Shown: positions 25,251 through 63,103 of the stretch, piece after piece
Layout: the number at the start of each line of letters is the position of its first letter
Position numbering within the stretch: position 1 is the stretch's first letter
From: Minutocellus sp. GHC0000111
Lineage: Eukaryota
Length of the DNA stretch: 64,000 nucleotides
Direction: 5' to 3'
NCBI GenBank assembly: GCA_977018835.1
Contig: OZ361257.1
Coordinates: forward strand, 4,960,001-5,024,000
Made by a program: the position numbers and the translations under genes
Notes under the pieces: model-generated
What the model saw: only the letters and a program-made list of their open reading frames with translations
Told to the model about the DNA's origin: nothing
Databases searched by the model: none

Positions 25251-26036
25251 TTACACCGATCGGAACCACCCGCCCTTCTTTTCTGGCGGCTCCTCGGGCT
25301 TCACGACGTTTTTAATAGCCTTCACTTTGGACACCATTTCTGTCTCGTAACGTGCCAATCGACCTTTGAAAGCCACGTGCCAAACGAAGAAAGGTATCGC
25401 CCGTTCTTTCATGAATTCAGATCGAAACCTCTCCGGTCCCATGGCATATATGAGAGCACCCATGGCATTATCGGGGGCACTTTCCAGCATTTTTCGCTGA
25501 AGCGTTGATATCTCTGGGTTGGGCGGGAAGTACGCACGCATCAGAGGAAGGGCTGCCCTCTCTTCGACGGCGAAATGCGCGAGCATGGTCTTCTCATAAG
25601 CCGCCATTGCATTTCGGAGGGCCGATAGAGATGCCTTGTCTGAGCTCAAATTGGACACAGCTCTGCCGACCTTATCGCGAACAAAGTCGAGCTGATTGTG
25701 AATGGTTTCAATCTCCTTTGGCCAAACAAAGCGAGTGATCAGCAAGGGCCGGTACATCTTTTCCTCTGCCTCACAGTGATCGACGGCATGGGCCACGTGT
25801 CCCTCCCACCACGCTCCGATAGTAGCTGCTGCCAACTCTGGCACATTTCGCTCGGTCTTCAGTCGCCCAGCCATCGAGTCCAGGGCCTCAATCATAGACC
25901 GCATCTCGACGCGAAGCGCATTGTGCGTGTGGACCCACTGATCGTGATCCAGTGGTATGCCAGCCCATTTTTCGTTCTTGTCGGGTGGGAATTCCTTGGC
26001 ATCAACAGCCGCCGCGGATATGTTGAGAGAGGCCAT
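25251..26036 (-). CDS. Hemerythrin-like (HHE cation-binding) domain protein
   Basis: WVHTHNALR.EM, HAVDHCEAEE, IHNQL and LAHFAVEE His/Glu ligand pattern. Confidence 0.8.
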   Translation of the reverse strand: MASLNISAAAVDAKEFPPDKNEKWAGIPLDHDQWVHTHNALRVEMRSMIEALDSMAGRLKTERNVPELAAATIGAWWEGHVAHAVDHCEAEEKMYRPLLITRFVWPKEIETIHNQLDFVRDKVGRAVSNLSSDKASLSALRNAMAAYEKTMLAHFAVEERAALPLMRAYFPPNPEISTLQRKMLESAPDNAMGALIYAMGPERFRSEFMKERAIPFFVWHVAFKGRLARYETEMVSKVKAIKNVVKPEEPPEKKGGWFRSV

Positions 26037-26235: not shown

Positions 26236-26659
26236 GATGGGTGATGGGGAAGGTGACGGACAGACCATCTCTTATCTTCCATCCATCTGTATCTCTGTAA
26301 GTCGCCATGCGATGGTTGACGACTGCTACCGGTGCTGCGTGTTAGAGTGCCGTGAAGAACGTCCCTGAATTGGGCATACCGATAGAATGCGTCAAATGAG
26401 AACTTTGCAAAAAGTGACAAGGGTTTTTGTCCGACGCCGTTCCAATTTAGCTTTTAGCATCGGTGGTGTAGATCAGCTTTTTGCCTGGCTGCTTTCGACG
26501 CCAGCCAAGCAGATTGCACAGAGTTCCCTCTCACGTCCCGAATGTGGTCAAGAAAAGAGCAAAGGCACCCGGGTTACCAAACTTTGTTGGTATCTTCTTC
26601 AGTATTATTGATATTGATGCAGAGGTCTTCGTCAAATGTACCTGCAGGATGCGACGGGG

Positions 26660-27671
26660 ATGATGATGTCGATGCAGAGCTCTTCCACCAGTGCCATTGC
26701 TTTTCGTCTCTGTGTTGTGTCAAAGCAGTCCTGATATTTCTTCCCAGTTACGAATTCTGTCATCTGACCGTCTCTTGGCAACTCCAAAAACGAAAACAAT
26801 TCTTCGTACATGTTATCAAAGTCATCCTCGAAGCGCTCGTAATAATGCAAAATGAGGGCCGGGATCTTCATCTTGTTGGTTGCGGCGAGAGCAAGGGAAT
26901 GCCATTGCGTGTGTCGGTAAAACTCGGAATGACAAGGAACACCCTCGAACGCTTTTAGCAGTGCATCGTCGAGGAATCGCGATTCTTTCTCCTCCTCATG
27001 AACCTTGTCGTCCATGGCCTGGCACCAATCCTGAAACCCTTTCGGCGTGCTGGGATGTTTCGTCAGCCATTCCTCATCGTTCTTCTTCTTCTTGTGAACG
27101 TTCTGCTCCAGATGAAATCGGCTCACAATGTTGTCGAATGGATCTCGAACAACATGCACCGCTCGTTGGACCAGTGATGGGTCGTAGTGAGTGTGATGCT
27201 TCTCAACCTGACACAGTGCCTTCCCCCGGGCACTAATGACATCGCCGTCTTCATCAAACTCCGGGGTCAATCGATTGCCGGTGAGGCATTGCATCATGAA
27301 ACTCCGTGCGGTGTGAATGTGCTTGTCCGGACCGCTGTTTGTGGTGTGTCCCCCACAATGCGTCTTGGTTGGGATGTACCGCGTGGGCATCCTCCTCTTC
27401 TTGAGCTGGCTGAAGAACGGCCCGTCCGGACTTCGCTTGTAGACGGGATGCAGTTCGACCCCTTGTCGTCTGCATCGCATTCCATCCCGTAATTGGACGC
27501 ACCGGTGATGTTGGACATGCGCTGCACGAGGCGCATGGTGAACGACGTGCCACTGTTGGGAAACGACATGACCCAGGCTGTGCGCGGCCACTCGTAGTCC
27601 TCCCCGCGCCTGGATCTTGGTCGCACGTCATGGGTTGGACAAATGACGGTGATTTGCCAGTTTTGCATGCC

Positions 27672-27703
<32 letters not shown>

Positions 27704-28080
27704 CATTCTCGATTCTTTGGATGGTTCACAATCAACATCTTCTTTGCCTGTAAACACATTGGGCTTGTTGACTTTGACACTGCTGCTGGTCGCACTTTTA
27801 CTCGAGGAACCTCGTTCCACGATGCCAATGGCCGCTCCGCCGTCATTGCTGTCTTTCACAACCCTCCACGCAAAGGCAATTATGTCATCAGTGCGAGAGA
27901 TGACATTGTTACACACTTTTGCCGGCTTCCCCCACGGCGATGGTTGCCCTTGATTGGGCTGCCGCTGCCGTTGGCAGTGTGGGATCGTGGCTGGAGAACG
28001 TCAGGGGTCTCATTGTTGCTGCTTTGTGCGCCTACGATGTGCTGGCCTGCAACGAACTGAGCCTCTTCATTCTTGCAGAT
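26660..28080 (-). pseudogene. Sulfotransferase-like (P-loop, WSCD/diatom type) gene relic, hypermutated and frameshifted
   Basis: AWVMSFPNSGTSFT (PAPS-loop-like), SNYG.E, TKTHCGG, AVHVVRDPFDNIVSRFH, PCHSEFYR..QWH and FLELP motifs. Split over frames at ~27450 and ~27610; outer limits approximate. Confidence 0.75.
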
Positions 28081-28109
28081 TGATTGGCAAGATGCATGCG
28101 TTGGGCGGC

Positions 28110-28620
28110 ACTTGCACACATGACAGAAGGAACCTCGTTGGATCATGCGTGTGGAGACTCCGGATGTAAATTCTTGGACCTGGCGACGGATGTGCTTGAG
28201 AGGAAGGCGTCACTGGACCACCGCCCTACCAGCATGATTGTGTGCGTGGGAACATCATTTAGACACATTGCCATTGCTGCTCCGCTGCGAATGGAGTGTG
28301 ATCCGAGTTCAGAGGGATGGCAGCCCAGGACGTCCTCTCCAATCACTGTGGCCGACGCTCGGATCTTGTCAACTGTTCGGGTGGCAGGAATGCATTTTAA
28401 TGCGCCGTTGACCACGAAGGCATTTGCCGGCGTGTCGCTGTTGGTGGCACTGGGGCACCCTAGGACTCGTTTCACCAGGGCAGCCCAAGCTCGAACTGGG
28501 CAGAGGGTGGCGTCGTGGGTGCAGTGTTGCGTGATCGTGACGTCACGCTCGTCGTTCTTCTGGAACTCAAAGGTGACGGAGACAGAGTCTGCTGAGAGGA
28601 GGGACCGGTCGTTGTGACAC
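28110..28620 (-). mobile_element. Tyrosine recombinase fragment of a DIRS/Ngaro-type retrotransposon, decayed
   Basis: SVTFEFQKND.RD.TITQ, LCPVRAWA, HSIRSGAAMAM and IMLVGRWSSDAFL. After a 2-nt frameshift it reads KHIRRQVQEFTSGVSTRMI, with His at the catalytic Tyr position. Confidence 0.85.
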
Positions 28621-29394
28621 ATGTGCGCCGTCGGCCGCGGCAGAGCTGCATGTGGATCCTTTTCGTCCACCACTGAAAAAATGCACATGTGGATGACGAC
28701 AACGAAATGTCATTTGGAGACGATGAAGGTAATTGTGGCTCAGATGAATCTGTCAAGGGCAGTAAATCCTGACAATGACTGCATTTTACATGTCATTCAA
28801 TTGATTTCGGCCTCGGCCTCGACCTCATGTTGCCGGTTCATTTGAGCCGCGGGGTTTTGGTTTTCGGGGGGAAGCTCCCCTCGGCCTGAGCGGGACCACG
28901 AGCCGCCGCTCTTTTTTATATATTTTTTTTCATAAAAAATCTTGCCTTGCTTTCACCGCGTTGAAAAACAACCACACAGCCACAACAGACCACCATGACG
29001 GACACCGCCGCTCTCGACGCGCTGGCCACCGCCGCCGACATCCGCGGCTGACGGAGGAGACAGTTGGGGACCACACTGCCGTGGCTGGGTCGCTGATGTT
29101 CGGTCGCCTGCTGTGTGCCTTGCGGCGGTTCGGACCTGCCTTCCGATGTGAAGGACTGCGCTCTTGCTCGTCGGATGGCGTTGCATGACGTCACTGATTG
29201 GGACTTCTTTGACAATTGGAGGCCCAGACGCTGGACTCAACACAAGGCCATCGTTCCTGATCGTTCCATCATTGAGCTTGCTCATGATGCTTTGTCCGGA
29301 GCTCAAGGAGGTCGAGCGCTTGCGCGTGGACCACCTGCTTGGACCAGCGCGTCGAGCGCAAGATCAGTCAACTCCTCCGAGCCACTGGCGAAAG

Positions 29395-29560
29395 GTTTGA
29401 CGCCGTCTGTGGCATGCAGTCTGAATCTTCTTTCGTCAAGACCTTGTCGGATTTATTTCGGCACAATGGCGTCATGCGCATGCTCCGTTCCGACAATGCC
29501 CAAGTCGCAGTCGTGCGGAGAGCCATCTGCCGCTGGTGCCGTGTGTCGGTCATCAGTCGC
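29395..29560 (+). mobile_element. Ty1/Copia (diatom CoDi-like) integrase core fragment
   Basis: DAVCGMQSESSFVKTLSDLFRHNGVMRMLRSDNAQV matches the remembered Copia integrase pattern VYGM.S...F...L.D.IR..G.M..L.SD.AQV. Confidence 0.7.
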
Positions 29561-29573
29561 TAACCCTAACCCT
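29560..29573 (+). repeat. Short telomere-like repeat (CTAACC)2CT
   Basis: ctaaccctaaccct directly truncates the Copia fragment. Confidence 0.6.
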
Positions 29574-30005
29574 CAATTGCGCAGGAGGAAGGGTTGGAAG
29601 GGTTTCGGTGAGAAAAAATGATGTGCACGAGGCAGATTTGTACGGTGCGGCACGTTCTCGGCAATGTGTTGGCTGCCTGTGCTCGCTGCTAGTTAGTGCG
29701 CACTTCCTTGCCACGAGCGTTGCGACAGTTCAAGGAGAAGTCAGGCACAAAAAGACTTTTTGCGCCAGTTCGTTTCCGAAAGTTCGACTTTCTTTTTTCT
29801 TGAGAGGTTCAACTTGAGTTGCAATAAGTGTACGCGATGCAGAGAGTGCGTGCCCTGGAAACCCGCCTTTTCGGTCGGAATGCAAAGGATTTGCATTCCG
29901 ATATCATTCCAAGCAGGAGGCAGTAAGCCAAACAGCAGCCGACGCCTGCCCGCAAATCCTTCTACTGCAATAGACAAGCTAACACCACCACTCTGCTCAT
30001 TCGCC

Positions 30006-30593
30006 ATGCTTGCTACACCACCTTCTTTGCCCTCGCCGGTTGCAAGTGAGTCCGCCTACCTGTACTCCGCAGCAACTCTCGCGATCCCTTCGCATACACA
30101 AAATGCTCCAAAGCGGAGACCCCAGAAAAAAGCAAAGCATCTAACCATCACATTTTCCAGCCAAGTTGAAGTGACGACAATCGCCTCCCTTCACAACATG
30201 GAGCAAGAGCAAATCTCATCCGTGTACTTCAATGAAGGGGATCGGCAAGAATGCAAGGAGGACATTGCCGTGACTCTGCGCGCCATCCGCCACAGGACTG
30301 CCCTCGACCCAACCACACAAGACACGAGAGGTCTCGAACATCTCATCTCCCGCGAGGTATACACTGAACTCCTTGCCAATAAAAACGCAGCGCTTTGCGC
30401 AGTCTTTGAAGCCCAGGATGCCGAAAATTCTCCCGACGATATTGCCAGGGCATACTCCGAAACCACTGCCGAGGCAGCTGATCGTGCTCAACGCAGGGCA
30501 AAGCGTGATGCCTTCGAGGCTACCATGAATCAAAGAGATTGGTCAAATGATCCATTTGCGTTTTTCAAAACGATGAATAGAGTAGCTGGCTAG
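30006..30593 (+). CDS. Hypothetical protein, same diatom-type family as 24421-24915
   Basis: ITFSSQVEVTTI...YFNEGD...EDIAVTL...DTRGLEH...AVFEAQ...IARAYSE.T..A...A...A..DA. Confidence 0.65.
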   Translation: MLATPPSLPSPVASESAYLYSAATLAIPSHTQNAPKRRPQKKAKHLTITFSSQVEVTTIASLHNMEQEQISSVYFNEGDRQECKEDIAVTLRAIRHRTALDPTTQDTRGLEHLISREVYTELLANKNAALCAVFEAQDAENSPDDIARAYSETTAEAADRAQRRAKRDAFEATMNQRDWSNDPFAFFKTMNRVAG

Positions 30594-30792
30594 ATCCAGT
30601 CCAAAAGCACTGCATGTATATTTTCTGTTCCTGTTCTTTCCGATTCCGACTTCCAATGTAAATACTGTAACAATATATATACTGTAATAAATAATTACTA
30701 ACTCTGCCCAGCATATCTATCGATTCTATCTACATTGTTCTTATCTTTGCTTTAGCTACATGCACCTGTACCTAACAACATGTTGCAGGATA

Positions 30793-36136: not shown

Positions 36137-36757
36137 GAGGCTCAGCGAGCGCAGTGCGTATAAAAAGATACGGAGCCAGCCCGCGACGCAATCGATCAGC
36201 GAAAAATAACGTTATCGGAACGAACAAGAGATGCACTAGGACCGGCCGATTGCCACGAGGAGCAGGGTACTAGTATCAGGGCACGACCAACAAGTGGCAA
36301 ATGACAATTGCTCGCTTGCTGCTGGAGGGTTGGCAGAGAACGAACGAAAAAGCGAAGCGGTCAAGAGTCCAAAAGTAGGCACATGCACAAAGAACACAAG
36401 ATGGGCTCGTTTTTTAGACTACTATGGTCACGCCTCGGCAGATCGAGGTAACGCCAGAGTACTGGGCGTCCAGCCAAACCCTATTCTTTGCCGTTCAGCC
36501 AAGGACCGAGAACAATATTGTCGCTCATCCAATGGCATCTCATCGCCAGTTCAGGCCGATCTCTAGAGTAGCTCTGCATGGCATGCATCGCGTCGCATCT
36601 GATCGACAAAAAATTCCCTCCGATACGCGAGCCTGCAGCGCCGACTTACGGAAAAAGCCTGCCGGCTAACATTGGCAGTCGAGCAAGTCACGAAAACAGA
36701 ACGACTTTCACTTTCACTTCACTCTTGGCAGGCTTGAAACAACGTCGGCCACCGACC

Positions 36758-37696
36758 ATGAGCCTGAAGAACGGCGAGGGCACGGCTACCACCACCCCAG
36801 CGAGCACCGGAATCGGCCACTCCTGCTTCACCGACGCAATATACTCTCAAGTAGAGCATTTGTACTCCGAGCACTCCCAGCACGTCGAGCACATCACCGC
36901 CTTCCTCGAACGGACCGTGCTGCCGGATCTGCTACTAGTACTACAATCGTCGTCGTCTTCTGCAACAATAAGTATTGCTACGAGTGGCAGTGATGAGAAG
37001 CAGAATATAAACAAAGAGCTGTCCCTGCTGGACGTCGGCGCTGGTCCGGGACAAATCACTCACAAATTGGCTCGTCATTTCCCCACAGTCGAGGTGATGG
37101 AACCCAACCCCTCACCGGACTATCTGGCCAGCTATGCCCGGTCGGAACCGCCCTTTGCCGTCCATCCATCACCCACGCTGGAGGAGGCCGCCATTGCGCC
37201 CGACGCGTACGATTTGATCCTGTGCTCGCACGTGCTGTATCACGTCGCCACATCGAAATGGACGGAATGTTTGCAAAAGTTGCATGCGGGGTTGCGAAAA
37301 CCCAATGGTCGTCTTGTGGTGGCGCTGATCGCCCCCCGTGGTCCGTGGTACGAGTTCATGTGCTCCCTCCGACCGAATCACGAGGTGGAGATGCACACCG
37401 GCACGCTGTGTCGAAAGCTGGATGATTTGCCAAACGTGGCATACAGGGCATATCCTCAAAAGGTTTCGCTGGCGGTACCTGCGGACCTGTTGGCAGAATT
37501 TACCAATCTCGTGAGATTGTTTTCGATTGCAGACACGTGGACGCCGACGGAATGGGAGGAGCTGGGGGAGGCAGGGAGGGAGGAGGCGGAAAGGAAGGTG
37601 GAAAAGTTTATTCAAGAGCAGTGTTTGGATACTAGTAGAGAGCGGAGGGGGTATCGGTTGGAATTTGACGAAGATTATGTTGTGGTGTCGGCTTGA
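36758..37696 (+). CDS. Class I SAM-dependent methyltransferase
   Basis: LLDVGAGPG (motif I), VMEPNP, YDLILCSHVLYHV, L..GGR-like LRKPNGRLVV. Confidence 0.85.
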   Translation: MSLKNGEGTATTTPASTGIGHSCFTDAIYSQVEHLYSEHSQHVEHITAFLERTVLPDLLLVLQSSSSSATISIATSGSDEKQNINKELSLLDVGAGPGQITHKLARHFPTVEVMEPNPSPDYLASYARSEPPFAVHPSPTLEEAAIAPDAYDLILCSHVLYHVATSKWTECLQKLHAGLRKPNGRLVVALIAPRGPWYEFMCSLRPNHEVEMHTGTLCRKLDDLPNVAYRAYPQKVSLAVPADLLAEFTNLVRLFSIADTWTPTEWEELGEAGREEAERKVEKFIQEQCLDTSRERRGYRLEFDEDYVVVSA

Positions 37697-45935: not shown

Positions 45936-48518
45936 TTACTTTTCCCTTTTCTCTCCATTAATTGCTTCTTCCTCGTCGGTACTTTCCAGATTTTTTAGTA
46001 TGGTTGAATACTCGTGCAGCTTCTCATCTACCTTGAAATTCAATGTGCCTTCTGGATATTTTCCTTTACTGTCTAGCTCTCCGGCGTCTACCCCAGTCAA
46101 CAAAGACAGTGCCTCGTCCACATTTTTGTATGTGTAGACATGAAATTTTCCTTGCTGCGCTGCCTCAACAATATCAGGCCGAAGCATGAGGTGAGGGGCG
46201 TTGCTTTCTGGAATCAGCACGCCTTGTTCACCGGTGAGGCCTGTAGCTGATGCTTTGCAAACATCGCAGAAGCCTTCAATCTTCTCAGTAGCACCACCGA
46301 TTGGCTGTGCTTGACCAAATTGATTTGTACTGCCAGTAATTGCGAGGTTCTGTTTGATTGGCACGCCGCTCAACGATGATAAAATAGCACAAAGCTCCGC
46401 CATTGATGCCGAGTCACCATCGATTTGGCCGTATGACTGCTCAAATACCAAACTAGCTGACACGGCGAGTGGGAACTCCTTTGCGTACCGATGCGCCAAT
46501 AGAGACGAGAGAATCATGACGCCCTTGGAGTGTATACTGCCGCCAAGTTCTACCTCACGCTCAATATCAGCAACTTTGCCCCGACCCAGGCGCGTGGTTG
46601 CCGTAATCTTTGAGGGACGACCAAAGGCCAACTTTCCGAGAGCCAAGACGCTGAGTCCATTAACCTGCCCGATCGCAGACCCATCTACATCTATAATGAG
46701 TGTACCACAGCGAATTTGCTCATAAATCAGCTCTCGAACTCTGTCGGCTCTATAGATTTGCTCTTCTAGTGCCTTCTCAATGTGTCTTCCGCAAATTATG
46801 CTTGAGCTGTCTGCCTCGGCATAAAAATCGGCCTCGCGAAGCAGGTCAGTCACGGTAGTCATGTGAGTAGAAAGCTTTTCTTGATCACCAACTCTCCGGG
46901 CCGCTTGTTCTATTACACCGGCGACAGCATCTCGGTCCAGAGCCCTTGTTTCTTCAGAGTTCGCGATTGATGCGAGCATCTGTGCATATAGCTGACAGGA
47001 CTCATCTGAGCGGTCGACATCATCATTGAAGTCAGCCGCAACCTTGAAGATCTCATCAAAGTCAGGATCATACTGTTGCAATAAGTAATAGAGCATACGA
47101 TCACCAAGAAGAACCACCTTTACGTCCAAACTGATGGGCTCAGGTTGGATTGTCACTGACAGTTCTGCTCCGAGGCTCTCGATCTTCACCGAGTGACCTC
47201 TTATGGCTCTTTTCAATGATTCCCACGCAAATGGCTGCATTAACACATCCCTCGCACGAAGTTCCAAATATCCGCCGTTTGCCTTGTGTAGCGCACCGCA
47301 CTTGATGAGGGAAAAATTGGTTACAAGCGACCCCATCATTGAGGCGTGGTCGATTCTTCCCATGAGGTTGTGATGAAAAGGGTGTTCCTCATATATCACC
47401 GGAGCGCCTTCTACTTCAGAGTTGTCCACGAACAAGTTGATCTGGTATTTTTCGAACGATAGGCGCTTGGGTTGGGACATGATGGATAATGGCGATTCAT
47501 TCTCCTCGTTTTCGGAGTGGATGCGGTCGTAATTTTCCATCATATCGTCCCGTAAGGCGTTCAAGTGAGCTATGACTTCATCGAACTCGCCATATTTTGT
47601 GCGTAACGACGCCATGTGGTCATCAATTACTCCCTTGGCACAATTTCTATTCAAATCCTTTGCCTTGGACATCGCTTCTTTGCGTAATTTGGGCACTTCA
47701 TTGATGAGCTTCTCGACTCGAGGCTGCAGCTCTTTCGCGGCTTTGGCCTTGAACTCCTCTTCTTCCGGACTGAAGGGCTCGCCGTCCTCCTTCTTCTCCG
47801 GTCCGGCAATGACGAACGATCCGGTCTGCGTCCGAGCGATGGAAAGTCCACTCTCCTTGGCTTCCTCAAATATGTTTTCAATCTGACGCTCATTCTCGCC
47901 AAACACGGCTTTGGTACTGTCCTCAATCTTTTGCTTATGCTCGTCTGCCTCGAGGGCTTCCGGAATGGCCGTTTGGAGCTCCTCGGTTAGCGTAGCGACG
48001 TCCTTTATGAGTTCCTTGCCCATACCGGCCGCCAAACTAATGGCCTTGGGCTTGTCACCATCGACAAAAGTGTGCACGTAGCACCAATCTGGCGGCGTGG
48101 TGAAAGATTCCTTGCTGCTCACTTCCTCCAGATACTTCTTGACGATGGTTCGTTTGCCCGTCCCCTGTGGTCCTAAAACGAATAAATTGTACCCATCGCG
48201 CTTCATGTGGACGCCGAATTCAATGGCCGAGCGGGCGCGGGCCTGGTTGATCAGTGCGCCGTCATTTTCCAGTGGTGTCAGCTCGTCGGTGGTGGTGAAA
48301 TTGAACGTTGAGGGGTCGAGATGCCACCGAAGGCTGGAAGCCGGTAACGGCGGATGGTCTGGGGCTGGTACGAGATATTCGCTGTTGCTTTTGCTGATAT
48401 CGTCTGGTGAGAGCGTTGAAAACAATCGAATATGCGTTGTGTATGTGCTACGAGGTGCCACAAAGGCGTCTGCGGCAGATGCGGACAGGGCCAGCAGAGA
48501 TGTCGAGTGAGTTCGCAT
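45936..48518 (-). CDS. Lon-family S16 protease of LonC/YcbZ type (AAA_32 + Lon_C), predicted plastid-targeted
   Basis: Signal-like N-terminus + ADAFVAP. GPQGTGK, PPDWCYV..F, GALHKANGGYL, GQVNGLSV, FEQSYGQIDGDSAS (catalytic Ser), PIGG..EKIEGF (catalytic Lys), QGVLIPESN..HLML. No intron seen. Confidence 0.9.
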   Translation of the reverse strand: MRTHSTSLLALSASAADAFVAPRSTYTTHIRLFSTLSPDDISKSNSEYLVPAPDHPPLPASSLRWHLDPSTFNFTTTDELTPLENDGALINQARARSAIEFGVHMKRDGYNLFVLGPQGTGKRTIVKKYLEEVSSKESFTTPPDWCYVHTFVDGDKPKAISLAAGMGKELIKDVATLTEELQTAIPEALEADEHKQKIEDSTKAVFGENERQIENIFEEAKESGLSIARTQTGSFVIAGPEKKEDGEPFSPEEEEFKAKAAKELQPRVEKLINEVPKLRKEAMSKAKDLNRNCAKGVIDDHMASLRTKYGEFDEVIAHLNALRDDMMENYDRIHSENEENESPLSIMSQPKRLSFEKYQINLFVDNSEVEGAPVIYEEHPFHHNLMGRIDHASMMGSLVTNFSLIKCGALHKANGGYLELRARDVLMQPFAWESLKRAIRGHSVKIESLGAELSVTIQPEPISLDVKVVLLGDRMLYYLLQQYDPDFDEIFKVAADFNDDVDRSDESCQLYAQMLASIANSEETRALDRDAVAGVIEQAARRVGDQEKLSTHMTTVTDLLREADFYAEADSSSIICGRHIEKALEEQIYRADRVRELIYEQIRCGTLIIDVDGSAIGQVNGLSVLALGKLAFGRPSKITATTRLGRGKVADIEREVELGGSIHSKGVMILSSLLAHRYAKEFPLAVSASLVFEQSYGQIDGDSASMAELCAILSSLSGVPIKQNLAITGSTNQFGQAQPIGGATEKIEGFCDVCKASATGLTGEQGVLIPESNAPHLMLRPDIVEAAQQGKFHVYTYKNVDEALSLLTGVDAGELDSKGKYPEGTLNFKVDEKLHEYSTILKNLESTDEEEAINGEKREK

Positions 48519-48951
48519 CGATTGCAATTGTAGCGTTCCGAGATGTCTTGTTTCACGAGAAAAGGAGAGACTTTGCTTCGATCGTTGAATTGATTGCGAT
48601 ATGATTCGCCTAATGATCAGAGGTGGTATTATTCTGTTGAATACAATTGATTGCATCGAGGAGGGTTCTGAAAAGAAGCATGCATTAAAGCGTCAAAGAG
48701 TCATGAGCAGGTCTTCATTGTTCTGCACATCGCTCATGGTGTCGAGCGGGTTCTGGATTTGGCAAGAAAACCCCGAGTTTTCAAAGGAAATGGGAGAATG
48801 GGTAGGTCCTCTTTTCTGTCTGTCCGTCATCGCTCACAAAGCGGCACATCTGCTTGTGCTGCCTGTTGTGCTGACTTTTTACTCGTGCTGGATACGCCAT
48901 TATTACCCCTCTTCAACGCTCGATATACCCTTGAATTGATATCGTTCTGTC

Positions 48952-49947
48952 ATGTCGGATGTAGTGGAATTAGCCGGAGAAAGTTTTGGAGGCGATCGGC
49001 CCGCGAAGAAGCCAAAGCACAATGAAATCGTGGCGTTCGGCGGACCTATGGACGATGAGGAAACCGCTCGGAAGAAGCTCGAGGAGGCTGGGTTTGATCC
49101 TGACAAGCCGTTAGATCCCGTATTTCCTTTAATGTACCCTGATCACTTTCCCGTGACTTATTTTTGCAGCGTCGGTGATCTCATGATGTGCCGGTACCTG
49201 CTCTCGAAAGGCGCCTCAACAACTCAAAGTTGGGTCGACGATGACGAAGACGATGCTAAAGGATTAAACAGCCTACCTTCACCGATGTTCGCAGCTGCTC
49301 GCGGAGGGCATTTAGATATCTGCAAATGGCTATGCGAATACGGTGCAAGCAAAGATATACAAACGACCAATAACTACTATTGCAGCCCTCTGTGCACTTC
49401 GGTAACCCAAATCAGTGAAGGGCTAGGGATCGATTCCTCCGAAATAGAAAGTTATAGAAAAGTTTGCCGCTGGTTGATCCTAAATGGAGCTCTTTGTCCC
49501 AATGACGATGGCATTATCAGCTTGGCCCTTATTAATGAGGCATTGGTACCAGCATTCGCGCAAGAAGACGGTTATGAGGAAGCGGAAGTGCTCCATTTGA
49601 TTGAGTGGGCAAAGGATACACTGCGAACACAAGAGAGTTTCATGACTTTTTTGATGGGGACGTACCTTCGCGATGTACCCACATTCACCACAGAAGGCTT
49701 TGAAGCGATGCTGGGGAAGAAATTTCATTCACCGGTATCGAAAGAAATTATCTTGAATCATCTTCCCGAGGCTCAACGGCGGTTGTTGTGGGGAGAGGAG
49801 AGGAATGACTGCGCTCTTCAGTGTCTGTCCGGACACCCTGAAATTCGAAAGCATATTGCAGACATGCTGGGAGTAGTGAGAGGGACGGAGCTTCGCATGA
49901 TGCGTGGACTGAGACGGTGTTTGGAAATCATTCTTGAGCACACGTAA
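48952..49947 (+). CDS. Ankyrin-repeat protein, copy 1 (intact)
   Basis: GDLMMCRYLLSKGAS, SPMFAAARGGHLDICKWLCEYGA and WLILNGAL. C-terminal LQCLSGHPEIRKHIADMLGV. Confidence 0.85.
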   Translation: MSDVVELAGESFGGDRPAKKPKHNEIVAFGGPMDDEETARKKLEEAGFDPDKPLDPVFPLMYPDHFPVTYFCSVGDLMMCRYLLSKGASTTQSWVDDDEDDAKGLNSLPSPMFAAARGGHLDICKWLCEYGASKDIQTTNNYYCSPLCTSVTQISEGLGIDSSEIESYRKVCRWLILNGALCPNDDGIISLALINEALVPAFAQEDGYEEAEVLHLIEWAKDTLRTQESFMTFLMGTYLRDVPTFTTEGFEAMLGKKFHSPVSKEIILNHLPEAQRRLLWGEERNDCALQCLSGHPEIRKHIADMLGVVRGTELRMMRGLRRCLEIILEHT

Positions 49948-50200
49948 ATTGAAGAAGAAATTCCGTTCACCCGAAGCGGCACATGCGATCCTGGCGTCTC
50001 TTCCCGAGGATCAGCATCAGTTTGTATGGGAAAAGGAACGTAAGGCATTGAATCATTGTGATCTTCAGTGTCTGTCCGGTCACCCAGGAATTCGGAAGCA
50101 CATTGCCGATCCGCTTGGAGTCAAATGCGGAAGAGATCTTCGTATCATGCGTAATTCAAGACGGGGTCTGAGAGCCTATTTGAGCACAAGTACTCTGTAG
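49945..50200 (+). pseudogene. Duplicated 3' fragment of the ankyrin-family gene
   Basis: KKFRSP...LPEDQ...LQCLSGHPGIRKHIADPLGV..GRDLRIMR; lacks the N-terminal ankyrin part. Confidence 0.8.
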
Positions 50201-50479
50201 AATGAAAAAAGGAATGTCTTCTCCGATGGTATAAAAATTTCCCATGGCATTCGGTATGGGCTCATGGCATTCGGTATGGGCATAGGGAAGTCGAAAACGA
50301 AACAATTGTGAGCAGAAGTGTGATACTTAGGAATTGCTCAGCATCTTAAACTCTAAAAAGCTTACAAATCTATATAACATCTCTCAAGCGTCCTCCTTGG
50401 CCCCGCTATTATCATAACTGACCATTCTATCCAGGCCCTTCGTTTCCTTTCTTTATAAACTTCGTTTCTCTTCGGAATG

Positions 50480-51783
50480 CTATCGATAGGCAGAAATCGA
50501 GAGTTCCGGGCTCATCATCAAATAAAGGATTCCGACGGTCCCAATCATTTGGACCGCGGTATGGGCTCCAAATCGAGCAGGCCCGACCCTGTTGTCATCA
50601 CAAAGCTTTTGGGTCAATGCGACGGTGCAAAAGAATCCCGTTACCATCACCACGCTCTAAACAGTATGTATGGTGTCCCATTCAGCGACGAATTGCGGTA
50701 TTCTGGACTTTGTCTCTGCTGCAAATGGGAGGTAAAAGGTATCCGGGAGCCGTGCGAGGACCAAGCCGAGCCTGGGCGATGATATGGTAGCAAATATGTG
50801 TTAGCGGTATGTATAAAAGACATCCAATAATTGTACGCAAAGAAGTGGTTACTTACTCTCGCATCCCTTATCCCAACCAGTACGCAGTCAGCGACCCCCA
50901 AGCAAGAGGAAGGTAACCATACCCAATCTCCTGGATGCCAACCTTGACAGTCTTCCTCAGAATGCTCATGAATTCGAAGAGGTTGAGACGGCCCAGACCG
51001 AGTACATCTGCCTTATCGAACAAGGCACTGGACTCCTCGTTTGTGAGGGGCTTCTTGAAATATCCCAGGTCGGACATTGTGTTGAACTCCTCCTTCGTAA
51101 TGAACCCATTTCCGTTCTTGACGAGTCGATTGAAGATCTCTACGAATGTGAGTTGAGTCTGCAGCTCGTTTTCTGCCTTGATGCTTCGATAGGTTGGACT
51201 CGAGGGTCGTCCGGCCTCTTTAGTTGAGAAGTAAAGGTCTGAGATATCGTCCATTAAAGTTGCAATGGATCGGCGATGTCTTCCGCTAACAAAGTCTCAT
51301 AGAGGTTTACGATTGCTGTGTTTTCTGCGGGCTGACGAGTCAATTGTCGCCTCCAAATCTTCGCTAAAGTCTCCAGAGGCCCACTAGCAGCATCGGCAGC
51401 ATAACTCAATGTACCCGGCAAGGCAAGGATCGCAGCAGAAAGCGCAGCATGGGTGGCAAAAGGCACATCGAAAGCAGGCGGTGCTTCGGCAATGGACGGA
51501 TCAAGACCCACATCTGCAAGGATCTTGGGTAGATAATGCAAAACCACGGCACCCTGCGGAATTGTGATGATGGCTCCCAGCCAAAAGTTGGTCTCTACTT
51601 GAGATGGAGCCAGGTACTCGGGCTTTTGGAGGAATTTCGGCACGAACCACGGGAGACCAAAGTCTTGCCCCAGGGGCCGTAAATTGCACTCGGGAGCCTC
51701 CCGTTCGCAGTTCTTAACGCAGGACATGCACATCACGCAATCGCCCATGTCTCTCAGCTGCTTATTCTTCAGGTCCATCGTGC
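50480..51783 (-). pseudogene. 5'-truncated membrane 4Fe-4S-binding protein with EF-hand insertion
   Basis: DCVMCMSCVKNC...NLRPLG ferredoxin motif; EF-hand-like NGNGFITKEEF and DVLGLGRLNLFEF; YGYLPLAWG. Frameshift at ~51260, TAA at 50868-50870, probable intron from 50853, TAG at 50657-50659. Confidence 0.7.
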
Positions 51784-51947
51784 TAAGGATATTTTTTTGG
51801 AGAGGTAAGCTTGGAATATCCTTAATTAGAATAAGGATTTCTAAACTCCAATTGATAAGAAATGCATAGAAGAATAAGGAACATGTCCGAAATTCCAAGC
51901 TTACCCTAAGGATAAAAAAATATCCTTATAGGTGTGGCCGGACTGTA
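51784..51947. mobile_element. MITE-like remnant with nested inverted repeats and a Tc1/mariner-like right end
   Basis: TAAGGATATTTTTTT (51784-51798) pairs with AAAAAAATATCCTTA (51914-51928). GGTAAGCTTGGAAT (51804-51817) pairs with ATTCCAAGCTTACC (51892-51905). Ends ...GTGTGGCCGGACTG|TA (minus strand TA|CAGTCCGGCC). Confidence 0.6.
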
Positions 51948-51949
51948 GT

Positions 51950-52294
51950 AAAGGCACGACATTCTTGCGAAACTGGGCAAGGGATGCCATAACAGAGCAT
52001 GACAACTTTCTGGTGTTCCTCATGGGAACCTTCCCTCATGCCCAATTCACCACAGAGGAACTGCGCAAATTGCTAAATCAAAAGCTTCGGTCGCCGAATT
52101 CTTTAACTACCATCATGGAGAGCCTATCAGAGTACCAGCAGCTGTCTTTGTGGAACAGCGAGCAGAGGCAGCCCAGCATCATTCAGTGCCTATCGGGTCA
52201 CCCTGGAATTCGGAAGCATATTGCTGACATGATTGGAGTGGTGAGAGGAAGGGATCTTCGCATTCTGCGTGGCCTGGAGCGGGTGGTCTTCTAA
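51950..52294 (+). pseudogene. 5'-truncated ankyrin-family copy
   Basis: WARDAITEHDNFLVFLMGT...FTTE...KLRSP...QCLSGHPGIRKHIADMIGVVRGRDLRILR. Confidence 0.8.
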
Positions 52295-52473
52295 CCTCTG
52301 ATCATCTTCTATAATGGGAAGTGAGACTCGCACACCTCGATCAGCTGACTCTGTAAATGAGATTTGCACCTTTGTCGTGATTGAGATGGCGAATCGTTTT
52401 CAACCGTAACCAATGGCCAGGTCCACACCTGTTGCTTTCGCTGGATACGCCATTGAGTTGATACCATTCTATC

Positions 52474-53491
52474 ATGTCGAATGCAGTAGAATCTGCCAGA
52501 GCTAGCGGCGGGGACAGCCGGTCCGCGAAGAAGCAAAAGTGCAATGGGACCGACGTGTTTGGTGGGCCCATGGACGATGAGGAAACCGCTCGGAAGAAGC
52601 TCAAGGAGGTTGGGTTTGACCCTGAGAGACCCGATCATTGCAAGCGCATAGCAATTGACGGGGAAGTCGACCCATATCTTCCAATGGTTTATTTTTGCAC
52701 TGTCGGTGACCTGGGAATGTGCCGATACTTGTATTCCAAGGGCGCATCGACTTACGAAAATTGGTGGGACGAAGCGTACGATGTTTATATTGGTGATTCT
52801 ACGATTGGTACCGAAGAAGAGAAAATGTTGAACAAAGTCCCTACACCAATGTATGCGGCTGCTTGCCAGGGGCATTTCGATATTTGCAAGTGGCTATACG
52901 AAGTCGGGGGATGGAAGGACATTCGATGGACAAGTACTTCATTTGATAGTCCGCTGTGCATTGCAGTATCTTGCATCAGTAAATGTGCCGATCCCACCGA
53001 AAGAGAGCGCCAAAGAGAGATTTGCCGCTGGTTGATCCTGAAGGAAGCTCTCTGCCCCTGTGACAATGGCTTCATCAGTGGTGGTCTTCTCAAAGAGGCG
53101 TTTCGGCGGTGTATCTATGGTGACGAAGCACCTTATTTTCTTGGTTGGGCAGAGGATGCAGTTCAAACACACGATGGCTTCATGGCATTTTTGACTGGGA
53201 CCTATCTTCGTGATGTACCCGCTTTCACCAACGAGGGCTTCAAAAGAATGATTAGGGACAAATTCCGCTCCTCTGAATCAGCATTTCTCGTTACGGCGTC
53301 ACTACCAACAACAGTACATGTGGGAAAACGAGCACCGCCATAGTAGTTGTGTTCTTCAGTGCCTCTCCGGACACCCTGGAATTCGTAAGCATATTGCCGA
53401 TATACTGGGAGTAGTTCGGGGTAGAGATCTTCGCATCATGCGCGAGTTGGAGGAGGGCTTACTAAATCTTAATGGAAGATGGGGATGGTAA
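52474..53491 (+). pseudogene. Ankyrin-repeat protein, full-length copy with frameshift at ~53306
   Basis: Colinear with 48952-49947 (FGGPMDDEETARKKL, GDL.MCRYL.SKGAS, GH.DICKWL). The family C-terminus LQCLSGHPGIRKHIADILGV...* lies in another frame ending at 53491. Confidence 0.8.
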
Positions 53492-62641: not shown

Positions 62642-62703
62642 TCTAAATCGCATGCTGCTACCATTGTACGTAGCTTTAAACTGATAGATATTACAACCAC
62701 TTT

Positions 62704-63103
62704 TATGTATGTATGTATGTATGTATGTATGTATGTATGTATGTATGTATGTATGTATGTATGTATGTATGTATGTATGTATGTATGTATGTATGTATGT
62801 ATGTATGTATGTATGTATGTATGTATGTATGTATGTATGTATGTATGTATGTATGTATGTATGTATGTATGTATGTATGTATGTATGTATGTATGTATGT
62901 ATGTATGTATGTATGTATGTATGTATGTATGTATGTATGTATGTATGTATGTATGTATGTATGTATGTATGTATGTATGTATGTATGTATGTATGTATGT
63001 ATGTATGTATGTATGTATGTATGTATGTATGTATGTATGTATGTATGTATGTATGTATGTATGTATGTATGTATGTATGTATGTATGTATGTATGTATGT
63101 ATG
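62704..63103 (+). repeat. Perfect (TATG)n microsatellite, 400 bp (100 units)
   Basis: Uninterrupted tatg run between two convergent 3' ends. Confidence 0.97.

What the first reader, a model, noticed from the sequence alone, without database searches (positions are those of the whole stretch)
26640..29560. Island with directional TpA->TpG/CpA (A->G, both strands) hypermutation: a candidate 'reverse-RIP' genome defence system
Seen: TpA is depleted. My hand count is about 32 TA in ~2.9 kb, only 1 in 28981-29560, versus about 15 in the 600 bp at 29941-30540. Surviving TAs are mostly in TTA/TAA context. The recombinase and integrase fragments contain no Tyr. Where family consensus (from memory) has Tyr, the codons are TGY or CAY: recombinase AMAM-C(TGT)-L, VPT-H(CAC)-T, LG-C-P, LG-C-HP and catalytic K-H(CAC)-IR; integrase V-C(TGT)-GM; sulfotransferase CGG-H, K-H-PS, R-H-.QWH, QD-C-F, plus I-P(CCA from CTA)-TKTH. 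Established: fungal RIP and 5mC deamination give C->T and create TpA/TpG, the opposite direction. TadA/ADAR-type deaminases prefer A preceded by U/T. Inference: Y->C (A->G on the sense strand) and Y->H (A->G on the antisense strand) occur within the same genes and in a non-TE gene. That suggests a DNA-level, region-targeted adenine mutagenesis (deamination or a mutagenic A modification at TpA) acting on repeats. I know of no characterised system of this kind.
Basis: partly seen in the sequence, partly recalled or inferred. Interest (0 to 1): 0.9.

Follow-up and report, generated by a model that had tools for sequence, protein, structure and literature searches.

The report
TpA-erasing hypermutation island in a diatom
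In a likely diatom genome, a 3-kb patch of transposon scraps and one broken gene copy has had most of its T-A steps rewritten to T-G or C-A while the neighbouring genes are normal, likely the footprint of a targeted DNA-mutating defence that my searches found described only in one 2026 preprint on an unrelated alga.

Summary
TpA observed/expected is 0.22 in 26640-29560 against a minimum of 0.43 in 547 other windows. Near-identical intact orthologues polarise it: the sulfotransferase copy has lost 9 of 18 tyrosines to His/Cys, and 11 of 40 TpA steps of a DNA orthologue survive against 910 of 1241 other steps. Ten copies of the recombinase family carry Cys or His in 31 of 42 tyrosine cells, both residues at the same codons: a DNA-level, two-strand process. 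Independent runs confirm the letters and show polymorphic TpA sites. This scan has also noted it in other diatom genomes. New here: a small, sharply bounded, half-finished, apparently transcribed island that includes a host-gene copy. Adenine deamination is my favoured but untested chemistry; sequence cannot tell it from thymine damage. Verdict: new member of a known kind, interest 0.62.

The parts
26665..29850 (.). TpA-depleted island (core). Polymorphic TpA/TpG-CpA sites reach from 26491 to 29831.
   Evidence: TA o/e 0.25, 0.22, 0.29, 0.05, 0.39 in its five successive parts against 0.46-0.53 left and 0.49-1.14 right; best segment 26844-29824; polymorphic sites
26678..28013 (-). Broken copy of a host sulfotransferase gene (PF00685): frameshifts, last ~15 codons replaced, 9 of 18 aligned Tyr now His (5) or Cys (4), plus Ile->Thr (3), Ile->Met (2), Val->Ala (1)
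   Evidence: Pfam E=1.4e-5; 88-92% identical intact orthologues P0121-P0123; DNA orthologue L001 aligns at 81% over 28018-26678
28117..28640 (-). C-terminal fragment of a tyrosine recombinase of a multi-copy mobile element (likely DIRS/Ngaro-type retrotransposon); no Tyr left, the YIR tyrosine is His, one 2-base frameshift
   Evidence: 215 homologues; PF00589 on relative P0046, E=7e-6; contig depth about 40 times the flanks; family-majority contigs have TpA at 28194, 28244, 28533; layout of relatives L003, L006, L007
26665..28652 (.). 1988-bp block (sulfotransferase copy plus recombinase fragment) that a half-depth contig skips; likely an insertion carried by one haplotype
   Evidence: joint 26664->28653 in 3 of 4 runs at depth 56, 128.6 and 8.3, about half of the flank depth; what lies between is not known to the tool
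28729..28979 (+). 251-nt GT..AG intron of a + strand transcript whose first exon runs antisense through the recombinase fragment
   Evidence: joint seen in RNA run X6 only, 0 in the three other runs; ends read
28995..29560 (+). Broken Tyr-free reading frame; its tail (about 29411-29521) looks like a copia-type integrase piece (likeness recalled, not confirmed); a short high-copy repeat lies at about 29507-29556
   Evidence: 1 TA in 565 bases; P0215, from a 2.6-Mb contig that also holds relatives of two other window genes, is the same locus as one open 214-aa frame with 0 Tyr; no Pfam match; depth and loose ends
25251..26036 (-). Left neighbour, hemerythrin-domain gene: unaffected control
   Evidence: TA o/e 0.46; every aligned Tyr of 14 cluster members is kept
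29880..30593 (+). Right neighbour, open reading frame with ordinary TpA content: control
   Evidence: TA o/e 0.49; no Pfam match

Best explanation
The island is DNA in which T:A pairs at TpA steps have been converted to C:G on both strands, likely by a host enzyme that is steered to transposon-marked DNA and that would deaminate the adenine of TpA to hypoxanthine, which is then copied as G. Shown: the direction (Tyr and TpA are ancestral), the TpA context, both strands, independent hits in different copies, confinement to about 3 kb, and polymorphism within the species. Inferred: (1) a block made of a truncated sulfotransferase duplicate and a recombinase fragment landed next to another decayed frame and was marked as mobile or foreign DNA; (2) the mutator acts in place over many cell generations, one site at a time, and does not read gene function, so the host-gene copy and up to ~200-300 flanking bases are hit too; (3) the enzyme is TadA/ADAT2-like, because tRNA wobble deaminases naturally act on the A that follows U33 (established knowledge, recalled) and the B. 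natans authors propose the same; (4) the outcome is defence, since the catalytic Tyr and most other Tyr codons of the recombinase are lost. My odds: targeted TpA mutator 0.9; adenine deamination as its chemistry about 0.55.
For: Island o/e 0.22 against minimum 0.43 of 547 windows and 0.65 in 16,339 bases outside long ORFs. Against DNA orthologue L001: 11 of 40 TpA kept against 910 of 1241 other steps, p=4e-9; 23 of the 29 lost ones read CA (16) or TG (7); A->G after T 25 of 80 against 45 of 515 after A, C or G, p=3e-7. Against P0121: 9 of 18 Tyr changed against 24 of 420 other residues, p=8e-7; 15 of 33 differences are TA-codon changes, while 19 relatives compared with P0121 show one Tyr->His and no Tyr->Cys. 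Ten recombinase copies: 16 His, 15 Cys, 10 Tyr, 1 Ala in 42 cells of 8 columns, with Cys and His together at 3 columns and Ile/Thr/Met at one; 111 distant relatives have 16 Cys/His in 555 cells, 6 of them in two proteins. In run X3, 17 of 30 listed differences are window G/C against A/T, 12 of these 17 at TpA (31% expected, p=9e-4), 4 go the other way. Same signature measured de novo in B. natans, 230 of 231 mutations A:T->G:C and all of these at TpA.
Against: No enzyme was found or could be sought: no genome is held and none of the 25 long ORFs scanned matched a deaminase family. Sequence cannot separate A from T chemistry. The direct forward/reverse test at TpA against L001 is only borderline (25 of 80 against 4 of 32, p=0.055). 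5 of the 17 X3 changes are not at TpA (3 ApA, 2 CpA), and that list mixes family-majority, second-version and other-sample contigs whose bubbles were collapsed. A finer context preference was not significant (3' pyrimidine 17 of 43 against 6 of 25, p=0.29). The whole window avoids TpA (0.57; silent T share before A 0.24 against 0.49). The island appears to be transcribed and spliced, which does not fit a simple silent-heterochromatin target. Defence is not demonstrated.
Confidence: 0.58

Rival explanations
1. Same targeted process, but the chemistry is on thymine: T in TpA is oxidised or otherwise modified (5-hydroxymethyl- or 5-formyl-uracil) in marked chromatin and mispairs with G, giving T->C before A.
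For: TpA is self-complementary, so every event counted here fits equally. 5hmU is known from dinoflagellates, another SAR lineage (recalled; a review mentioning it appeared only as a listing).
Against: No paper linking such a mark to diatoms or Bigelowiella surfaced in the listing; oxidised thymines are normally repaired by glycosylases and mispair only partly (recalled), whereas loss here is near complete in places (1 TA in 565 bases).
Confidence: 0.18
2. Adenine in TpA is first methylated (6mA) by a region-targeted methyltransferase and the modified base is then deaminated or miscopied, by analogy with the methyltransferase-led route of RIP.
For: Would give a strict, symmetric dinucleotide context on both strands, as seen.
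Against: Known eukaryotic symmetric 6mA is in ApT, not TpA (recalled), and ApT is not depleted here (1.11 against 1.13). No candidate enzyme tested.
Confidence: 0.08
3. Error-prone gap filling by polymerase eta or iota during repair of marked DNA, as in the A:T phase of somatic hypermutation (WA hotspots).
For: TA is the strongest pol eta hotspot (recalled); 3 of 17 X3 changes are ApA->ApG; a slight, non-significant CpG loss could supply the lesions (28 of 104 against 14 of 84, p=0.11).
Against: No ApA excess against L001 (13 of 157 forward, 18 of 157 reverse); AA o/e is 1.20 in the island; few transversions at TpA; CpG o/e is 0.95.
Confidence: 0.07
4. No targeting: a genome-wide TpA mutability or GC-biased gene conversion shows only where selection has stopped (dead gene, dead transposon).
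For: The whole window is TpA-poor (0.57) and silent sites avoid T before A (0.24 against 0.49); the island is made only of broken sequences; one flanking methyltransferase differs from its counterpart by one Tyr->His and two Ile->Thr among 20 differences.
Against: DNA outside long ORFs has the highest TpA content (0.65), for example 24 TA in the 199 bases at 30594-30792, and a ~400-bp TATG microsatellite at about 62700-63100 is unbroken. A->G is not raised after A, C or G, which excludes plain GC-biased conversion.
Confidence: 0.06
5. ADAR-like editing of element RNA, fixed by reverse transcription.
For: 5' U preference fits ADAR; the element is probably a retrotransposon.
Against: Both Tyr->Cys and Tyr->His occur in one copy and in a non-TE gene; flanks and an intron-containing stretch are hit too; an RNA route gives one strand per cycle.
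Confidence: 0.02
6. Sequencing or assembly artefact.
For: Run X1 may be the source of the assembly and is then not independent.
Against: A 2018 Illumina metatranscriptome of another study (X6) matches 26318-27211 and 27244-28154 with 0 differences; a second assembly holds the Tyr-free frame P0215.
Confidence: 0.01

Closest known systems
TpA-restricted hypermutation of integrated viral DNA in Bigelowiella natans (Mettrop et al., bioRxiv 10.64898/2026.01.13.699255; I read the abstract, Results and Discussion, and term look-ups; supplements closed)
   Same: A:T->G:C transitions at TpA giving TpG and CpA on both strands; confined regions; long-term TpA loss with CpA+TpG gain; low-TpA coding sequences enriched for transposon domains but including host-type domains; enzyme unknown, ADAT2-like deaminase only proposed.
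   Different: Other SAR branch (likely a diatom, a stramenopile; the preprint's main text never mentions diatoms). Target here is a 3-kb patch of transposon scraps and a host-gene copy between normal genes, not 25-186-kb viral inserts. Depletion is deeper (0.22, locally 0.05, against 0.45). RNA contigs cover and splice the island, whereas the B. natans giant-virus region is silent. Here it is inferred from homologues and polymorphism, there measured de novo.
Repeat-induced point mutation (RIP) of ascomycete fungi (recalled; RIP papers seen only as listings)
   Same: Dinucleotide-specific transitions on both strands that wreck transposons, hit duplicated host genes and leak into flanks.
   Different: Opposite chemistry and direction: RIP turns CpA/TpG into TpA; this removes TpA and creates CpA/TpG. 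Dependence on homology, on the sexual cycle and on RID/DIM-2 is untested here.
TadA/ADAT2-ADAT3 and ADAR adenosine deaminases; APOBEC DNA editing of retroelements (recalled, and as discussed)
   Same: A->I read as G with a preference for U/T before the A; deamination as an anti-element defence.
   Different: Natural substrates are RNA; APOBEC edits C on one strand of cDNA. Nothing here identifies the enzyme.
Polymerase eta WA hotspot mutagenesis in somatic hypermutation (recalled; listing only)
   Same: A->G favoured at TA.
   Different: WA includes ApA and yields transversions; neither is raised against L001.

Membership tests
B. natans-type TpA hypermutation | Excess of A:T->G:C transitions with known direction | tested here: met
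   Tyr ancestral in orthologues, 9 of 18 lost; 17 against 4 by direction in X3
B. natans-type TpA hypermutation | Restricted to TpA context | tested here: met
   25 of 80 after T against 45 of 515 after A, C, G, the latter no higher than in the reverse direction; 12 of 17 in X3, so strict exclusivity is not proven
B. natans-type TpA hypermutation | Both strands (TpG and CpA products) | tested here: met
   16 CA and 7 TG; His and Cys at the same codons
B. natans-type TpA hypermutation | Confined to regions, neighbours normal | tested here: met
B. natans-type TpA hypermutation | Targets are foreign DNA (viral, transposon) | tested here: inconclusive
   One part is a multi-copy recombinase fragment; nothing viral; the largest part is a host-gene copy
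B. natans-type TpA hypermutation | About 1000-fold raised de novo rate, active in a subset of lines | not testable with these tools
   Needs mutation-accumulation lines; polymorphic TpA sites only suggest recent activity
B. natans-type TpA hypermutation | Candidate ADAT2/3-like deaminase in the genome (proposed there, not shown) | not testable with these tools
   No genome held
Fungal RIP | C->T transitions, mostly CpA->TpA | tested here: not met
   TpA 0.22, CpA 1.35, TpG 1.42; direction fixed by orthologues
Fungal RIP | Triggered by sequence duplication | tested here: inconclusive
   Recombinase is multi-copy and a second sulfotransferase version exists in the runs, but the most depleted part, 28996-29500, has about single-copy depth
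Fungal RIP | Premeiotic timing; RID/DIM-2 methyltransferases | not testable with these tools
   No genome, no crosses
DIRS/Ngaro tyrosine-recombinase retrotransposon (source of 28117-28640) | Tyrosine recombinase domain | tested here: met
   Relative P0046 matches PF00589, E=7e-6, just under the curated cut-off; HxxR, GRW and YIR motifs conserved in A3; no direct match of the window piece and none in PDB
DIRS/Ngaro tyrosine-recombinase retrotransposon (source of 28117-28640) | Overlapping upstream RT/RNase H frame | tested here: inconclusive
   Relatives L003, L006, L007 have a 1060-1090-aa frame overlapping the recombinase, with RT-like motifs by eye, but Pfam and PDB gave no match; absent from the window
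Copia (CoDi-type) integrase (29411-29521) | Match to an integrase core profile or to intact relatives | tested here: inconclusive
   No Pfam match; 2 relatives only; none among longer proteins; the one viral-contig hit is a chance match on a non-coding frame

The most novel reading that the evidence does not exclude
Diatoms and chlorarachniophytes share one ancient DNA-editing immune system, a mirror image of RIP: an adenine deaminase guided to mobile or duplicated DNA, perhaps by transcripts such as the spliced antisense RNA that crosses this recombinase fragment, erases TpA on both strands, kills displaced copies of the cell's own genes as well as transposons, and so limits gene duplication in a major phytoplankton lineage. 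It would be the first natural genome-targeted adenine base editor of eukaryotes.
Probability: 0.25. Interest if true: 0.92.

Novelty: new member of a known kind. Interest (0 to 1): 0.62.

Why it matters
Almost all known mutational defences (RIP, APOBEC, 5mC decay) turn C into T. A TpA-specific A:T->G:C mutator has been reported once, in a preprint on a rhizarian alga, with no enzyme. Finding the same footprint in a likely diatom widens it to a second SAR branch that has genetic tools, so the enzyme, the targeting signal and the timing become testable. This locus is useful as a test case: it is small, bounded by normal genes, half mutated, polymorphic, and includes a host gene with 88-92% identical intact orthologues, so every change can be polarised. 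If the enzyme is a double-strand-genome adenine deaminase it also bears on base-editor design, and on how transposon age, GC content and pseudogenes are read in diatom genomes.

Tried and rejected
Own genome: not held, so no genome-wide TpA scan, repeat annotation or deaminase search. Self-BLAST of the window found no second copy of the island parts, only ankyrin-gene repeats at 48.9-53.4 kb. Viral contigs: no relative of the recombinase by protein, alignment or exact 21-mer; the integrase-like query gave one chance hit, L008. Integrase-like piece: no Pfam match, two relatives only, none among longer proteins, so V-C-GM stays unpolarised. PDB gave no match for the recombinase profile or the RT-like frame; Pfam none for the RT-like frames. 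The protein atlas did not complete. A possible leak into the hemerythrin gene at 26003 was rejected: Asp, the window's residue, is what all but one of the cluster members show where the column was printed. A finer context rule (3' pyrimidine, no T at -2) was not significant against L001, although 11 of 12 X3 sites have a 3' pyrimidine. CpG decay as the source of the TG/CA excess: CpG o/e 0.95 and asymmetry p=0.11. I could not recover the second, less mutated sulfotransferase version: the contigs collapse most of it. No species name came from cluster look-ups. Prasinoderma paper (PMC11884799, passages only): genome-wide lack of AT bias, no TpA; not the same thing. Crypton paper (PMC3212892, passages only): diatom Cryptons exist, so a Crypton origin of the recombinase is not formally excluded. 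Ten literature searches listed no report of this signature in diatoms; the library lacks most subscription journals.
Full report
1. Observation. TA observed/expected is 0.22 against 0.57 for the window, with TG 1.42, CA 1.35 and CG 0.95. Of 547 same-length windows outside the island the lowest is 0.43 and the 96 GC-matched ones start at 0.45; a segment scan picks 26844-29824 far ahead of anything else. DNA outside long ORFs is richer in TpA (0.65 over 16,339 bases), so this is not what unconstrained DNA looks like in this genome. Survivors are enriched in TTA/TAA (21 of 32 against 35%); GTAA/TTAC is spared, ATAC/GTAT and ATAG/CTAT are absent.

2. Organism. No genome is held. The named homologues are from diatoms (Attheya and Ditylum; Trieres and Thalassiosira), so 'diatom' is an inference; no species name was obtained. 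Runs holding the stretch are labelled organism A, sponge metagenome and marine metagenome.

3. Anatomy. Between a hemerythrin-domain gene and an ordinary ORF lie: a broken sulfotransferase copy (26678-28013, minus), a tyrosine-recombinase fragment (28117-28640, minus), a short exon and 251-nt intron (28729-28979, plus), and a broken Tyr-free frame (28995-29560, plus) whose tail resembles a copia integrase (recalled likeness, not confirmed). The recombinase piece has about 40 times the flank depth; relatives sit in elements with a long overlapping RT-like frame, the DIRS/Ngaro layout, but the RT call rests on motifs seen by eye (Pfam and PDB negative). In 3 of 4 runs a half-depth contig joins 26664 to 28653, and the orthologous locus L001 has a different upstream neighbour with no match in the window. 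I read the 1988-bp block as a displaced, 3'-truncated gene copy travelling with an element fragment on one haplotype; this is inference, and a deletion on the other haplotype is not excluded.

4. Direction and context. The sulfotransferase has intact orthologues at 88-92% identity. Against P0121, 9 of 18 Tyr are now His (5) or Cys (4), one of them beside a frameshift; with Ile->Thr (3 ACA), Ile->Met (2 ATG) and Val->Ala (1 GCA), 15 of 33 differences are TA-codon changes. Among 19 relatives compared with P0121 there is one Tyr->His and no Tyr->Cys. At DNA level, 11 of 40 TpA steps of L001 survive against 910 of 1241 other steps (p=4e-9); 16 became CA and 7 TG; A->G occurs at 25 of 80 adenines after T and 45 of 515 after A, C or G. 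The matched reverse test is only borderline (4 of 32, p=0.055). Flanking genes keep their tyrosines: hemerythrin all, against 14 cluster members; PPR 16 of 18; RING 7 of 7 and 2 of 2; methyltransferase 11 of 12. These controls are under selection, which is why the non-coding control of paragraph 1 matters.

5. Family-wide and recent. Ten near-identical recombinase copies (nine database proteins, most from large contigs, plus the window) hold 16 His, 15 Cys, 10 Tyr and 1 Ala in 42 cells of 8 tyrosine columns, with Cys and His together at three columns. One codon cannot give both without separate events on opposite strands. The 111 more distant homologues have Cys or His in 16 of 555 cells, 6 of them in P0015 and P0039. 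In run X3, 30 differences pass the 35% share filter: 17 are window G/C against A/T, of which 12 are at TpA, 3 at ApA, 2 at CpA; 4 go the other way, one at TpA; 9 are transversions. Contigs collapse alleles, so I cannot say which differences are between haplotypes and which between samples. Run X1 and the RNA run X6 of another study match the mutated gene with 0 differences, which excludes an artefact; X6 alone shows the GT..AG joint and has no cover over several neighbouring genes, a hint that the island is transcribed.

6. I-P-TKTH is ancestral. LG-C-HP has Cys in intact relatives too. V-C-GM could not be polarised. The island is slightly wider than given. The system is not without precedent.

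7. Mechanism. Shown: TpA-specific T:A->C:G change, both strands, in place, confined, repeated across copies. Inferred: a host mutator steered to element-marked DNA, blind to gene function, leaking a few hundred bases. I favour deamination of the adenine by a TadA/ADAT2-like enzyme (about 0.55 given a targeted mutator at 0.9), because wobble deaminases act on the A after U33 (recalled) and deamination gives pure transitions. TpA is self-complementary, so thymine oxidation fits the data equally and is the main rival; a 6mA route, polymerase eta (no ApA excess), relaxed selection or GC-biased conversion, RNA editing (two strands) and artefact follow in falling order. Whether duplication, chromatin or RNA guides the enzyme is open: the most depleted part has about single-copy depth, which argues against a strict RIP-like homology trigger.

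8. Comparison. I read its abstract, Results and Discussion: in B. natans mutation-accumulation lines 231 of 302 substitutions fall in two viral inserts, 230 are A:T->G:C and all of these at TpA; low-TpA coding sequences are enriched for transposon domains; an ADAT2 homologue is proposed without test; diatoms are not mentioned. The present island meets the four sequence features I could test and differs in host, target, scale and apparent transcription. It works like RIP in effect but fails RIP's defining chemistry. Ten searches listed no report for diatoms. Unchecked notes of this scan describe the same pattern in other diatom genomes; none for this genome or this sequence. I did not test those notes and do not count them as support.

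9. Verdict. Real, well polarised, mechanism unknown at enzyme level, precedent in one preprint: new member of a known kind, interest 0.62. The boldest reading left open, a shared SAR adenine-editing immunity that also removes displaced host-gene copies, has probability about 0.25 and would deserve about 0.92.

Noticed in passing
P0015 and P0039: Two distant recombinase homologues (60% and 51% identical) carry the same Tyr->Cys/His pattern at 4 of 4 and 2 of 5 conserved columns, so other element families or species are affected.
   Followed up: partly
window 28458-29225: A spliced RNA contig starts inside the recombinase fragment, antisense to it, and leads into the frame at 28995, which is open for 214 aa without a single Tyr in a second assembly (P0215): a possible chimeric new gene or guide transcript. 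The other haplotype-like contig has a changed donor site at 28730.
   Followed up: partly
L003:1049-7260; L004; L006; L007: Complete or near-complete recombinase retrotransposon-like elements lie in contigs filed under bacterial MAGs, one inside a 375-kb contig next to bacterial-type genes; either misassembly/contamination or a real insertion. Their TpA content is ordinary (mostly 0.4-0.6).
   Followed up: no
L005:1-3481: A related element shows the opposite decay, CpG o/e 0.26-0.30 with TpA 0.64-0.76, as expected from 5mC deamination in another host.
   Followed up: no
window about 62700-63100: A perfect TATG tandem array of about 400 bases, untouched by TpA loss; repetition alone does not trigger the process, or the array is homogenised faster.
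   Followed up: no
window 36578-37696: Methyltransferase-domain gene differs from its counterpart in the second assembly by 20 of 309 residues, including one Tyr->His and two Ile->Thr; TA o/e is normal (0.58).
   Followed up: no
window 45936-48656: A LonB/LonC-like AAA+ protease of prokaryotic type in this eukaryotic contig; possible horizontal transfer.
   Followed up: no
window 48917-53442: Locally duplicated ankyrin-repeat genes, 65-83% alike, with ordinary TpA content: old host duplicates that were not erased.
   Followed up: no
window 29507-29556: Short high-copy repeat with many different flanks in the contigs, at the right edge of the island; perhaps an element terminus.
   Followed up: no
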